The translations under genes were made by a program, and so were the position numbers. From NCBI GenBank assembly GCA_964016885.1, contig OZ024752.1, positions 31,062,001 through 31,126,000 on the forward strand: 64,000 nt of DNA, given 5' to 3'. This DNA comes from Eledone cirrhosa. Lineage: Eukaryota. The first letter of the stretch is position 1; each line of letters begins with the position of its first letter. Below, one piece after another: positions 17,181 through 62,296 of the stretch. The notes under the pieces are model-generated. The model was not told the DNA's origin, searched no databases, and saw only the letters and a program-made list of their open reading frames with translations.

Positions 17181-17387
17181 ACGAAGGAAATGTGGTAAGG
17201 AACCAGGTGGACCATAACGCACCAAAGTACTCAATACTTGAGGTAGTAGAGTGGGTAATAGGAACCAGTAAGACCCCGACAGCTGAGCTCAAGCCGTTTC
17301 GACGGCTAATTCTGGACTAAAATTTTAGTCCAGAATTAGCCGTCGAAACGGCTTGAGCTCAGCTGTCGGGGTCTTACTGGTTCCTAT
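17181..17387. mobile_element. Fold-back element, family D (130-bp perfect palindrome 17258-17387 plus tail)
   Basis: Arms are exact reverse complements and contain the hammerhead 3' half GAAA-CGGCT…AGCTG-TC-GGGGTC. Family copies at 31849-32053, 34080-34222, 46899-47078, 49146-49328, 60390-60541, 61425-61612 and 62660-62790, nearly all in or beside (TA)n. Confidence 0.85.
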
Positions 17388-18691
17388 TTATATATATATA
17401 TATATATATATATATATATATATATATATATATATATATATATATATATATATATATATATATAATTATATATATATTTATATATATATATATATATATA
17501 TATATTTATATAATTTATATATATATATTTATATATATATATATATATAATTATATATATATTTATATATATATATTTATATATATATATATATATAATT
17601 ATATATATATATATATATATATATATATTTATATATATATATTTATATATATATATATATAATTATATATATATTTATATATATATATATATATTTATAT
17701 ATATATATTTATATATATATATATTTATATATATATTTATATATATATTTATATATATATATATATATTTATATATATATTTATATATATATATATATAT
17801 TTATATATATATATATATATTTATATATATATTTATATATATATATATTTATCAGTTGATGGATGTGAATCCGAAATATATAGGGACTATTAAATCTCTC
17901 CCAATGTAACTCTCTCTTGTGTTGTTATTTTTATTTTATCCTTTATACTCTTCCCTTCATTCTACACATCTCACACATCTTATACACACCACGCATCTCA
18001 ACGTACACCCACTTACATCTCTCTCTCCACCACCGGACCTTGTTACCCGGAGATTTACCCATTTGCATTGTCGAGGCTTCCAAACGACTTAAAGAAATTT
18101 ACCTTATTATTCCACAATGCTTCAAGCTAACTTCAATACTCTCTTATATATATAGATATTTATATATATATGTATAAATATATATATATATATATATATT
18201 TATATATATATATATATATATATTTATATATATATATATATATATATATATATATATATATATATATATATATATATATATTTATATATATATATATTTA
18301 TATATATATATATTTATATATATTTATATATATATATATTTATATATATATATATTTATATATATATATATTTATATATATATATATTTATATATATATA
18401 TATTTATATATATATATATTTATATATATATATATATATATATATATATATTTATATATATATTTATATATATATATATATATATATTTATATATATATA
18501 TATATATATATATATATATATATATATATATATATATATATATTATATATATATATATATATATATATATATATATATATATATATTTATATATATATAT
18601 ATATATATATTTATATATATATATATATTTATATATATATTTATATATATATATATATTTATATATATATTTATATATATATTTATATATA

Positions 18692-19228
18692 AAATAAAAT
18701 ATTAAACAAATAATGAATAAACAATTCCTTATATTAAACAAAAAAAGTTCATTATTTAACGATCGTTTCTAGGATATATATGTGTTAGAATTGGTATGCA
18801 TATTCAACAGATCTATGTACAAAATTATACAAAATTATACAAATTATCAAGATTAAATATACATACCAAACACATATATACGCCGTCTTTATTTCTGAAG
18901 ACGGCGTATATATGTGTTTGGTATGTATATTTAATCTTGATAATTTGTATAATTTTGTATAATTTTGTACATAGATCTGTTGAATATGCATACCAATTCT
19001 AACACATATATATCCTAGAAACGATCGTTAAATAATGAACTTTTTTTGTTTAATATAAGGAATTGTTTATTCATTATTTGTTTAATATTTTATCTTGACT
19101 CTGTATACCGTTTATCTTTCACCGAAAGTGGTTTTTCATTACATCTCTTCTTTCCATGATATCCGGAATACATTGAGTTCTTCATACGGATTGGACACTA
19201 CCGTAAACTCTTGGTAGATTTATCTACA
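18692..19228 (+). mobile_element. Fold-back element (about 400-bp palindrome 18692-19093 plus 3' tail)
   Basis: Arms are reverse-complementary (ORFs 18785- and 18796+ translate almost identically). Embedded in (TA)n. Confidence 0.9.
18889..19035 (+). ncRNA. Type I hammerhead ribozyme with a very long stem II
   Basis: TTATTT-CTGAAGA-[about 115 nt hairpin]-GAAA-CGATCG-TT-AAATAA. Stem I is 6 bp; stem III is palindromic. Confidence 0.7.
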
Positions 19229-58480: not shown

Positions 58481-58564
58481 ATGTCTCGAAGGAACTATTG
58501 GAGTAGAAATGAAATTAGTATGTTTATAAAATATACCTTGTTTTCACTCAACTTTCTATTTTGG
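58481..58564 (+). CDS. Tetraspanin (TspanC8 subgroup, TSPAN5/14/17/33-like), first coding exon
   Basis: CAACC-ATG context. MSRRNYWSRNEISMFIKYTLFSLNFLFW matches the TspanC8 N-terminus/TM1 (…EVSCCIKYFIFGFNVIFW) and is followed by a canonical phase-0 GTAAGT donor directly after the Trp codon. I found no exon 2 in the window. Confidence 0.9.
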
Positions 58565-61500
58565 GTAAGTTTTATATGATAAATTCTATAATATACACAT
58601 CTAGCTATATACACATCTAGCTATATACACATCTAGCTATATTCATATATATTTTCTTTGTATATATATATATATATAAACATACATATATATAAACATA
58701 CATACATACACACATTAAGTATATATATATATAGATAGAAAGAGAGAAAGAGAGGGATAGATATATATTGGGCTTCCTGATGATTTCTCCCGAATGAAAC
58801 AGTTCTAGTCCTGTAGAAGCTATTTCTATGTATTGATATGTATTGAGTACATAACTTACTGTGGCTACCCCCGATTGAACCCGGGGATAAACATATATAT
58901 ATATATAAACATATATATATATATACACACACACATTAAGTATATATATATATATATATATATGTAGGTAAAATTTAAAAGTGAAATTTTTTCTTTAATC
59001 CGGCAGAATGAATATTTATATAATTGTTACATTAAACGAATTTAAATTTTGTCATATATATAAATATATGTGTGTGTGTGTATATAATGTAGGAATGTTA
59101 TTGTTGTGGTACTATTACTACTGATAATAATTGTTTCTACTATTGGCACAGGGCCAGCAATCACACAGTACATTACTGGTACTTTATTTTATCGACCCCT
59201 TAAGATATGAAAGGCAAAGTTAACCTCGGCGGAATTTGAACTGAGAAAATGATCGGTTCTCATTTAGTTACCAATAATAATTCTGCTATTAGTTATATAT
59301 ATATACTCTCATTCTTTTGCTTTATTTCAAATTTCTTTGAATATATATATATATATATATATATGTATATATACACATACATAGAGAGCTCTCTTTCTCT
59401 CCATTCTCTAGTCTTTTAATCCCAGCTCCCTCCCTCTCATTTTGTTATTCTCTGCGGTACCATTTCTATTTCTAACATGCTACACAATTTAGATTTTCAA
59501 ATTTTCGCTTTGAACACGCAGCAATTTAAAAAAAAAAAATCTATTTTTATACAAGAAATTGTTATATCACAGCTCACAAAGTCATATATATATATGCACA
59601 CACACACATGCATATATAGATACATGATATATATATATATATATAAACACCCACCAAACAAAACAAGCTATATATATATATATATATATATATGTGTGTG
59701 GGTAATATCAAATATTATCCAATTACAAGTATGAAAGTAGCTCAATGTGAAATAAGTTTATTATAGAGCCGAAATACTATATATATATATATATATATAT
59801 ATATATATATATATATATATATATATATAGCTTAAACAAGCTATATATCTACCTTTCTTTATATGGCTTGTTTTGTTTGGTGGGTGTATATATATATGCA
59901 TGTGTGTGTGATGTAAATGTAAATACTTCGCAATTATTGCTATTAAAAAAACAATAACAACAACAACAAACCACAAATAAAATAGCATTTCTGTTTTCTA
60001 TGTTTATTTTTGGAAAATATTTTAAATATATATTTTCTTAATTATTTTTCCTTTCGGTGCGGACTTAGACAAGTGTCTGTTTGTCTGTCTCTTCCTATAC
60101 ATACATGTACATACATATCTTACTCACATGTATGTATGTATATATATATAAATGAAAATAGAGAAATTAATGTGAGCAAGAAGCCAACATATATATATAT
60201 ATATATATATATATATATATATATATATATATTTTGTTTTTTATTTAAGTTTAATCGATACAAAAATACACCGAGATTGTGTTTCTCAATTTTCTCGTTC
60301 TATATGCATGTACAAAATAGCAGTTTCTCTATTGATATTATCGGTATATATATATATATATATATATATATATATATATATATATATATGACGAAGGCAG
60401 TGTGGTAAGGGACCAGAAGGACCATAACGCACCAGAGTACTCAAAACTTAGGGTAGTAGAGTGGGTAATATGAAAATGTTAAAGACCCTCGACGGCTAAT
60501 TCTAGACGCTGCTTGAGCTCTGTCGTCGGGGTCTTGAACATTTATATATATATATATATGCCTTTATGTATCGTTTAAACTTGTAATATATATATAAGCA
60601 AAACATCTCTTATTCTTTCTTCTAACCAATATAAGCATTGAGCTGACTGAAACATATTTGGTGATATACTATCATATATAACTCTCTACATACATATTGA
60701 GTTATATATATTGAATTACCTTTGGTGTGTGTGTGTGTATATATATATATATATATATATATATATATATATATATATATATTTTTTACTCTTTTACCTG
60801 TTCCAGCCATCCGACTGAGGCCTTGCTGGGGCACCGCCCTTGTTGCCACACATTTTATCTCCAGCCTGTATTGGTTGGCCCCAATTGTGTAAGAGGGAGT
60901 TCGTTGCTGCTGCCCTTAGGTTTCCCTATATATATATTGTTGCCTGATGACCCTGTGATAAACAGGCGAAACTCCAGAATAACAAGACTCTATTTCGCCT
61001 TAATAAAATTTATATATATATATATATATACACATATATACATATATATATAAGTAGAAGTGGTATTTAATTTGTGCGAAGTCCGACAAACATAAATGTT
61101 TATAACTGATTTTTATATATATATATATATATATATATATTGTAGGTCGACTTTGCTTGGCCACATCCAAAGCTTCGATTTTACTAAGCTTCCACATATA
61201 TAAATATATGTGTGTGTGTGTGTTCTTCCGAAGAGTTTGTTTTGGTAAAAACAGGAGCAAGCAAGGGAAAGCTCTCAACATTCGTAGTTTGTAGTTACGA
61301 TGGAGATTCAATAAACATTAATAAAGATGCTGAACGATTTATGTAACTTCAGCATTTTTATTAATGTTATTATTATAATAATATATATATATATATATAT
61401 ATAATTGTAATATATATATATATAAAACGAAGGAGGTGTGGTAAAGATGGACCATAACGCACCAGAGTACTCGATACTTAAGGTAGTAGAGTCGGTAATA

Positions 61501-62296
61501 GGAAAATGTTTAACCCCGACGGCAGAGCTCAAACCGTTTCTGTAGCTATTTCTGGACTCCAGAAATAGCCGTTGAAACGGCTTGAGCTCTGCCGTCGGGG
61601 TTAACCATTTTCTTATATATATATATATATATATATATATATATATATATATATATATATATATATATATTTATGTGTGTGTATGCAATCCGACATGTGT
61701 ATTAGACCCATCTATCTAAACATATTATATATTGCTGTATATGTTTATAAGAGGAGTGAATGTCTCGTTTCCGATATCTCTTATGGAATCTGTTGTTGTT
61801 TTCCTTCAAAGAATCTTGTAAAGCTAAAGAACGACGTTAAAAATATATGCGTTCGTTTGTTGACTGCCTGAAAACAAAGACCAAAGACATGAAAAATATG
61901 ATTTAATTTTCTATAATAGGATTTAGTCTGCTCCGGCAGCTGTAGTTTAATAACAATTAACCCCTTACTCCCCCATCGCTGGGCACTTTGCGTAATTATT
62001 TAAAATAGTTAAGATATAAAACATAATATCCAAGTCTGTCAAACGAAGGGAATTGAACGAGAGATGCAAACATGCGTAAACATTTAAATCAAAACATGGA
62101 AATCTAAAAATGGTTTCTTGTTTGATGGTGTTGATAACACATACATACACACACACATATATATATATATTATATATATATTTAAAGGTTAAACAAGGTT
62201 CAATGAATAAATCAAAGAATTAGTTTTACAATAGATTGGAAGCACTCAACAGAAATCTTAACCATCTACTATGTCAGGGTATGTCATGCATCATCT

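What the first reader, a model, noticed from the sequence alone, without database searches (positions are those of the whole stretch)
17258..61612. Fold-back palindromes that pivot on the ribozyme: a candidate self-priming integration mode
Seen: the axes of the near-perfect palindromes are not random. At 18893 and about 57248 the axis lies immediately 5' of CTGANGA; at about 35635 one arm starts at stem I and the other stops in stem II. In family D (axes 17322, about 31913, 46949, about 49276, about 61558) the axis is the loop of presumptive stem II, so only the GAAA-stem III-GTC half remains on both strands, with a different loop in each copy. Family A axes (25936, about 34674, about 47967, 55424) lie at different distances upstream of the ribozyme, implying independent events. 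Established: PLEs often show 5' truncation with an inverted pseudo-LTR. Inference: reverse transcriptase stalls in the ribozyme fold, the cDNA snaps back and self-primes, and an ORF-less hairpin element results.
Basis: partly seen in the sequence, partly recalled or inferred. Interest (0 to 1): 0.85.

Follow-up and report, generated by a model that had tools for sequence, protein, structure and literature searches.

The report
Penelope hairpins mark template RNA start
The hairpin-shaped repeats are real, very abundant short insertions of Penelope-like jumping genes, made of two end pieces joined head to head; their turning point likely marks the front end of the element's RNA rather than a ribozyme-triggered fold-back, which gives a testable clue to how these elements copy themselves.

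Summary
The palindromes lie at the stated axes. Head-to-head joints of family D also occur in raw reads of three other samples. They are the shortest form of the known inverted Penelope-like (PLE) insertion: one arm carries the 'tail', the other stops at the upstream reverse-transcription start. Family D has an autonomous parent with a complete hammerhead-like motif (4,633 arms; 16,696 mini-hairpins). The axes cluster, but at family-specific points: inside stem II (D), at the 5' edge of stem I (B, F), about 70–90 nt upstream of the ribozyme (A, H). Cis snap-back fits poorly: the tail-less arm reaches at least 20 nt further 5' in 18 of 63 pairs, and filler is commoner than microhomology. A stall on the fold fits poorly too: the same sequence ends about 88% of terminal arms but about 14% of internal ones. 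Best reading: two target-primed cDNAs run off a fixed RNA 5' end, probably the transcription start, and are joined. An extra G supports this in A, B, F and H, not in D; no RNA data were available. Self-priming was proposed in 2013, and this scan noted such hairpins in other genomes.

The parts
17179..17387 (-). Family D mini-hairpin, axis 17322.5; tailed arm on the minus strand (left), tail-less arm right
18694..19229 (+). Family F hairpin, axis 18893.5; tailed arm on + begins 1-2 nt inside the family hot spot at the stem-I 5' strand; hammerhead core 18895
19407..22928 (+). Family B long head-to-head pair: tail-less arm about 19407-19830 (-), tailed arm about 22450-22928 (+) with core at 22801 and TATAAATA 30 nt upstream of the family hot spot
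25329..26543 (.). Exceptional near-perfect palindrome (598/600 identical) around two tailed family-A arms plus flanks, inside an older inverted pair (about 24630-27205); likely a DNA-level fold-back or assembly homogenisation
28120..30886 (-). 5'-truncated PLE insertion: tail-less arm 28120-30135 (-) with GIY-YIG fragment 29481-30113; tailed inverted arm 30136-30886 (+), 1.3 kb shorter at its 5' end
   Evidence: (PF01541, E 1.8e-6)
31849..32054 (+). Family D (D2 sub-lineage) mini-hairpin, axis 31912; tailed arm right
34412..34843 (-). Family A hairpin, axis 34674; tailed arm left
35396..35836 (-). Family C hairpin, axis 35644; tailed arm left; the tail-less right arm carries 22 nt more 5' sequence (stem I, core), with no junction homology
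46898..47080 (+). Family D mini-hairpin, axis 46949.5; tailed arm right
47800..48224 (+). Family A hairpin, axis 47967.5; tailed arm right
49140..49329 (-). Family D (D2) mini-hairpin, axis 49276; tailed arm left
55146..55599 (-). Family A (A2) hairpin, axis 55424; both arms end at the family hot spot, with one base between them; tailed arm left
57188..57380 (+). Family B hairpin, axis 57248; tailed arm right; the tail-less left arm reaches about 11 nt further 5'
61425..61616 (-). Family D mini-hairpin, axis 61557; tailed arm left

Best explanation
The hairpins are short head-to-head insertions of Penelope-like retroelements in (TA)n, with one tailed and one tail-less arm, likely made by two target-primed cDNAs that run off a fixed 5' end of the element RNA, probably its transcription start, and are then joined end to end. 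Shown: tailed/tail-less pairing, family-specific sharp upper limits, filler-rich junctions, an autonomous parent. From the literature: the PLE protein nicks and extends both target strands and starts at two internal RNA sites that flank the tail (PMC11167929). Inferred: two separate cDNAs; the stop is the end of the template, not a fold; the end is a capped start site; repair joins the two 3' ends. The ribozyme lies near the axis because it sits near that RNA start, not because it causes the turn.
For: Pairing: 0 of 50 family-D hairpins had two tails (only hairpins with at least one tail were collected); 7 of 7 long -/+ neighbours were one tailed plus one tail-less. Either arm can be the longer at its 5' end: tail-less 27, tailed 11, within 4 nt 25, of 63 pairs. 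Junction overlap: >=3 nt 10, 1-2 nt 15, blunt 5, filler 24, of 54. Hot spots lie at +43 to +45 (D), -6 (B), -7 (F), -88/-89 (A) and about -70 (H) from the core, each at an A after two pyrimidines; B has TATAAATA at -30 and D has TATTTAAA at -29. Of 142 truncated D arms, only 2 ended 18-75 nt upstream of the anchor, and the peak was at 9-11 nt. The base 5' of the hot spot is G in 17 of 27 non-templated cases in A, H, B and F (P=0.0015; 12 of 22, P=0.03, after removing 5 that the partner arm could supply). First against second encounter in D: 16,696 hairpins against 4,633 intact arms, but 24 stops against 151 read-throughs where the ORF start follows. Raw reads: 11 of 13 strand-switch joints have one end at L221:4844-4861, 8 of them at 4847-4851.
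Against: There are no RNA data, so the start site is untested. Family D shows no G excess (9 G, 14 C, 4 A among 27 non-T), and its longer arms read four or more T where most parents have three, which fits an uncapped end or slippage equally well. TATA-like words are common in this AT-rich DNA; A and F lack a well-placed one. The two arms are more alike than unrelated copies (A 0.021 against 0.046; D 0.027 against 0.041; B 0.017 against 0.027), which snap-back also predicts and two cDNAs explain only with a shared source. Later deletions at palindrome centres could create some of the asymmetry. Seamless read-through at 151 internal sites means that long copies need another template (multimer, circle) or a strand transfer, which is not shown. 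The table was hand-corrected.
Confidence: 0.6

Rival explanations
1. One reading: reverse transcriptase stalls in the hammerhead fold, and the single cDNA snaps back, self-primes and is resolved by the endonuclease at the upstream site.
For: The hot spots of D, B and F lie in or at the edge of the ribozyme. The arms of one insertion share variants. A few junctions use stem homology, such as L144 at stem I. Self-priming is proposed in PMC3846280 (Discussion, read).
Against: The tail-less arm is >=20 nt longer at its 5' end in 18 of 63 pairs, and by kilobases at window 28120-30886 and in L221. Filler outnumbers homology. The A and H hot spots are outside the ribozyme. The B and F stops lie behind helices already unwound. 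The same D sequence is mostly read through internally.
Confidence: 0.1
2. Two cDNAs as in the best explanation, but the fixed RNA end is made by processing rather than by transcription start: an endonucleolytic cut in an AU-rich loop, 5'-3' trimming up to a protein-bound fold, or a splice-acceptor-defined end.
For: D lacks the G signature and shows extra A on the cDNA. The B and D hot spots resemble T-rich YAG acceptors, and the D. virilis intron ends at helix I (PMC4209133, passage read). A minor class ends at or near the predicted ribozyme cut (L104 and L124 exactly; L107, L144, L168 and L190 within 3 nt).
Against: There is a G excess in A, H, B and F. No shared upstream-exon sequence appears beyond the stops. 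The A, F and H hot spots have no AG.
Confidence: 0.2
3. A few palindromic master copies propagate as self-contained ORF-less elements, and the different loops arise later by centre deletions in DNA.
For: Mini-hairpins outnumber long arms. An internal promoter, as in D. virilis Penelope (PMC2377424, passages read), could let the minis be transcribed.
Against: The first 50 listed matches hold about 36 different junctions, and 5 of the 6 recurring types occur in both sequence sub-lineages (counted by eye). Long pairs share the same two 3' ends. The minis follow the parents' sub-lineages.
Confidence: 0.07
4. Fold-back chimeras from sequencing or assembly.
For: The 25936 palindrome has 598/600 identical columns, microsatellites included, and was not tested on reads.
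Against: The arms are asymmetric, diverged and separated by fillers. There are 16,696 D junctions with control 0. 7 of the 11 hot-spot joints recur in all three raw-read runs.
Confidence: 0.03

Closest known systems
Canonical EN+ Penelope-like insertion unit: partial tandem, inverted 5'-truncated pLTR, tail at one end (PMC3846280; PMC8557442)
   Same: Head-to-head arms, a tail on one arm only, (TA)n targets, partial tandems (L221), palindromic junctions.
   Different: Here both arms are usually cut down to 60-350 nt in more than 16,000 copies of one family, with a sharp family-specific turning point. Some tails (76-136 nt) are longer than the 30-40 bp described.
Anolis PAc in-vitro mechanism (PMC11167929)
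   Same: Two internal RT start sites flanking the tail, both target strands nicked and extended, AT-rich targets, predicted dimer.
   Different: The parts read (1-2 of 4) do not explain the inverted junction or report a fixed 5' stop.
Self-priming proposal for PLE inverted junctions (PMC3846280, Discussion)
   Same: Explains the same head-to-head palindromes.
   Different: Invokes self-priming on an antisense template. The arm asymmetry found here favours two separately primed cDNAs.
Type I hammerheads in pLTRs, including the U3-A8 variant and opposite-strand pairs 100-700 bp apart (PMC4209133)
   Same: Core motifs, palindromic loop III, and the U3-A8 core in family D and at 30701.
   Different: Family D has a long stem II and a 5-6 bp stem III. 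Most genomic copies keep only the 3' half.
L1 twin priming and retroviral minus-strand strong-stop DNA (recalled, not read)
   Same: Two priming events at one target; a short cDNA that runs off the capped 5' end.
   Different: Twin priming inverts without duplicating; here the same segment is copied twice. No tRNA primer or integrase is involved.
Non-LTR retrozymes (bioRxiv 10.64898/2026.07.22.740005, part 1 of 5 read)
   Same: ORF-less, hammerhead-bearing PLE derivatives.
   Different: Retrozymes are head-to-tail tandems with a whole ribozyme in each unit; these are head-to-head and often hold half a ribozyme.

Membership tests
EN+ Penelope-like element | Single ORF with RT and C-terminal GIY-YIG endonuclease | tested here: met
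   L221:4878-7238 is a 786-aa open frame with a YRDD motif. Pfam gave 0 families and PDB 0 hits, but the Atlas features score 0.96-0.99 against clusters, several carrying GIY-YIG or RVT_1. Window 29484-30113 hits PF01541.
EN+ Penelope-like element | Pseudo-LTR partial tandem with adjacent inverted copy | tested here: met
   L221: inverted arm, truncated copy, full copy; seamless arrays with a period of about 3.54 kb.
EN+ Penelope-like element | Tail at one end only | tested here: met
   read ends followed by (TA)n at both L221:4908 and 4988. Exception: window 25936.
EN+ Penelope-like element | Clade placement (Neptune, Poseidon, other) by RT phylogeny | not tested
   A cysteine-rich linker precedes the endonuclease, but no tree was built.
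Type I hammerhead ribozyme | CUGANGA/GAAA/UH core, or the U3-A8 variant | tested here: met
   A, B, C and F are canonical. The D parent has U3-A8 in most listed copies and a mismatched C3-A8 in others.
Type I hammerhead ribozyme | Three-helix fold | tested here: inconclusive
   The L221 MFE is the hammerhead (z -0.48). 95.5% of cells pair in 16 copies, but no pair changes on both sides. RNAalifold prefers another fold. No Rfam hammerhead appears among the 150 shown of 267 rows or the 44 rows.
Type I hammerhead ribozyme | Self-cleavage | not testable with these tools
   Indirect only: 6 of 126 arm ends lie within 3 nt of the predicted cut.
Non-LTR retrozyme | Head-to-tail tandem units, each with a complete hammerhead | tested here: not met
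   The minis are head-to-head, and D keeps half a ribozyme.
Snap-back (self-primed) insertion | One arm is a sub-copy of the other, joined through homology | tested here: not met
   27 of 63 pairs each hold sequence the other arm lacks; 24 of 54 junctions have filler.
RNA polymerase II start site | Capped RNA 5' ends at the hot spot | not testable with these tools
   Only genomic proxies: G excess and YYA/TATA context; no RNA run was listed.

The most novel reading that the evidence does not exclude
Penelope-like elements make a retrovirus-like 'strong-stop' DNA. The protein starts 60-340 nt from the cap of its own mRNA on both target strands and runs off the cap; the two short cDNAs are joined into a hairpin. 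Long and tandem copies arise only after a strand transfer to the 3' repeat or from ribozyme-made circles. Tens of thousands of genomic hairpins would then be a fossil map of PLE transcription starts. In family D the start lies inside ribozyme stem II, so the mRNA cannot cut its own 5' end.
Probability: 0.3. Interest if true: 0.75.

Novelty: new variant of a known kind. Interest (0 to 1): 0.45.

Why it matters
How PLEs form their tandem and inverted insertions is stated as open in PMC8557442 and PMC11167929. This genome offers thousands of young, short insertions that separate the models, and it gives base-precise predictions (5' ends per family) for CAGE/RACE and for an in-vitro assay with an apparently intact element. 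In practice these hairpins mimic MITEs, miRNA precursors and assembly artefacts. More than 16,000 transcribable hairpins from one family could also be a source of double-stranded RNA (inference).

Tried and rejected
Rfam returned only miRNA-type hairpin hits and no hammerhead among the rows shown. No RNA holder was listed. The read-end peaks at L221:4855, 4796 and 4844 and the depth step were rejected as evidence: 4855 and 4796 fall on AATT, and 4844 on an AATT found in some sub-lineages, likely the library's restriction site (recalled). The family-C tail search found nothing; C junctions were seen only in incidental flanks and as hit spacings. The first two junction scripts mis-assigned some partners, and the D part had a faulty parent filter and was redone. 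An upstream second hot spot in D was not supported: 5' ends of long arms scatter from -35 to beyond -1,500 (3 of 30 unaligned). A spliced upstream exon was not supported. Literature searches for Penelope with strong-stop, template switch and tandem and for cap-derived G with all five terms returned 0 papers. One search listed 3 papers, and a whole-word look into one found nothing, so the cap-G rule is recalled, not cited. One search (octopus, Penelope, hammerhead ribozyme) listed only PMC8557442. Subscription papers and supplements were not seen and may hold such models. No earlier findings exist for this genome.
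Full report
Setting. The window is G000:C12:31062001-31126000 in a 3.0-Gb, AT-rich animal genome. Its repeats look octopod-like, which is recalled and was not tested. The window is dense in (TA)n and in 3' ends of Penelope-like elements (PLEs).

Observation. 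Reading the flanks showed what was missed. In families A, B, C, D and F, one arm runs on through a tail to (TA)n, while the other stops at a fixed upstream point. This is the PLE tail signature. An inverted 5'-truncated copy and a tail at one end are described in PMC3846280 (passages and Discussion read) and PMC8557442 (passages read). PMC11167929 (parts 1-2 of 4 read) shows in vitro that the tail lies between two internal RT start sites and that both target strands are nicked and extended. PMC3846280 already infers self-priming from such junctions.

Family D parent. A pattern for the missing 5' half gave 4,633 matches (control 0). The core is TTGA(G/A)AA in most listed copies, the U3-A8 variant reported in PMC4209133 (parts 1-2 of 4 read), and CTGAGAA in others. 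L221 holds an inverted tailed arm, a truncated tandem copy and a 786-aa RT-endonuclease frame that ends in a tail-less repeat. Pfam missed this protein; the Atlas placed it near GIY-YIG/RT clusters. The single-sequence fold is a type I hammerhead, but covariation is absent and the alignment fold differs. Exact mini-hairpin junctions number 16,696. All counts are exact-match lower bounds.

Artefact test. On the L221 repeat, raw RAD reads from three further samples with the same species label gave 13 strand-switch joints. Eleven have one end at 4844-4861, eight at 4847-4851, and 7 of the 11 occur in all three runs. Thousands of reads end in (TA)n at both 4908 and 4988. The 25936 palindrome remains open: both arms are tailed, 598 of 600 columns are identical, and identity then falls to roughly 70-97% per block.

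Where the arms end. I sampled 30 loci each of D, B and A with tail-only queries and 17 of the 40 listed F hits. Pairs could be scored for 27 D, 20 B and 16 A loci. I dropped loci with no partner within 1.5 kb, loci with ambiguous alignments, and four A loci lost to a duplicate filter. The table was hand-corrected, and it includes the window's own D and A copies. Arm ends pile up at a family-specific limit: D 40 of 54 (none upstream), B 30 of 40 (2 upstream), A 11 of 32 (3 upstream). In F, all 8 palindromic copies turn at the stem-I edge or core; 8 read through and 1 was interrupted. Relative to the core, the limit is +43/+45 in D (inside stem II), -6 in B, -7 in F, -88/-89 in A and about -70 in H (few copies). 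So the axes are non-random, but they do not track one ribozyme element.

Snap-back against two cDNAs. A snap-back arm must be a sub-copy of the first cDNA. Yet the tail-less arm reaches further 5' by >=5 nt in 27 of 63 pairs and by >=20 nt in 18; the tailed arm is longer in 11; 25 are within 4 nt. Window examples are 35644 (22 nt), 57248 (about 11 nt) and 28120-30886 (1.3 kb, including a GIY-YIG fragment); L221 differs by about 4 kb. None of 50 D hairpins had two tails, and 7 of 7 long opposite-strand neighbours were one tailed plus one tail-less. Junctions show >=3 nt overlap in 10 of 54, 1-2 nt in 15, none in 5, and filler in 24, up to about 90 nt in D. Against this reading, arms resemble their partner more than other copies (A 8 of 9, D 15 of 28, B 7 of 12 below the median), and the 49 loci listed pair like with like (counted by eye). 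The two cDNAs must therefore come from one RNA or one source, or have been homogenised later.

Stall against run-off. At the terminal position about 88% of D arms end at the limit (33,392 hairpin arms against about 4,480 intact terminal arms). Where the same sequence is followed by the ORF start, 24 stop and 151 read through. The patterns differ slightly, tandem arrays inflate the second number, and survivors may be more processive. Still, a fold that stalls the enzyme should act both times. The B and F stops also lie behind helices already unwound (inference). Each limit is an A after two pyrimidines; B has TATAAATA at -30 and D has TATTTAAA at -29, while A and F lack a well-placed TATA. Where the base before the limit is not the parent's C, it is G in 17 of 27 A/H/B/F arms (P=0.0015; 12 of 22, P=0.03, without five that the partner could supply; one T row may be a duplicate). 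This is what copying a cap would give (recalled). D shows no such excess and instead has extra A on the cDNA. D. virilis Penelope starts its transcript inside the pseudo-LTR (PMC2377424, passages read). Six of 126 arm ends lie within 3 nt of the predicted ribozyme cut, a hint that cleaved RNA is a minor template.

Mechanism. Shown: the anatomy and counts above. From the literature: two start sites and both strands primed. Inferred: both target ends prime cDNA, one at each start site; both run off a fixed RNA 5' end, probably the transcription start; the two 3' ends are trimmed and joined, often with filler. Long seamless tandems would need multimeric or circular templates (circles are proposed in PMC4209133) or a strand transfer. 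My odds are about 0.85 for two cDNAs, 0.7 for a fixed template end and 0.55-0.6 for a transcription start.

Verdict. The structure is a known PLE by-product, the self-priming idea is published, and the scan noted similar hairpins in other genomes. I found no paper with the run-off or strong-stop reading, which cover only the open library. What is added is genome-scale evidence against cis snap-back and ribozyme stalling, and a base-precise, testable alternative. Interest 0.45.

Noticed in passing
window 24630-27205 and 25329-26543: A nested giant palindrome: older diverged outer arms around a 600-bp near-identical core with two tailed arms. It is either a DNA-level fold-back or assembly homogenisation.
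   Followed up: partly
G000:C12 about 30974850-30975220 (locus L062): A 185-bp, 100% identical inverted duplication of a whole family-D hairpin, centred on a TA run, with one tail clipped; likely a secondary DNA-level event.
   Followed up: partly
L221:4878-7238; arrays listed: An apparently intact 786-aa PLE frame that Pfam does not recognise, and seamless tandem arrays of up to four units with a period of about 3.54 kb.
   Followed up: partly
window 18895-19035 (family F); hits: A hammerhead-like motif with a stem-loop II of about 115 nt. All 40 listed hits are 100% identical over 166 nt, several spaced 3-7 kb apart: a very young family.
   Followed up: partly
L104, L107, L124, L144, L168, L190: Arm ends at or within 3 nt of the predicted hammerhead cut, a possible genomic trace of in-vivo cleavage.
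   Followed up: partly
window 10300-13250: A tandem duplication of about 1.63 kb carrying paired CTGATGA motifs on the minus strand (11036/11159 and 12667/12790), with a related copy at 14000.
   Followed up: no
window 15503-15940 and 51853-52362: Further PLE endonuclease-end fragments with a cysteine linker; the first has a weak GIY-YIG hit.
   Followed up: partly
window 2671-3216, 5700-6365, 38850-39260, 33631-34074: 3' fragments of other non-LTR retrotransposons (endonuclease-type and RTE-like ends by recalled motifs).
   Followed up: no
window 16737-16854, 47041-47150: Tail-to-tail inverted pairs around a TA run: separate insertions into one microsatellite, not head-to-head units.
   Followed up: no
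window 57335-57790: The end of a family-B tail amplified as a tandem of about 35-nt units with TA spacers.
   Followed up: no
   Followed up: partly
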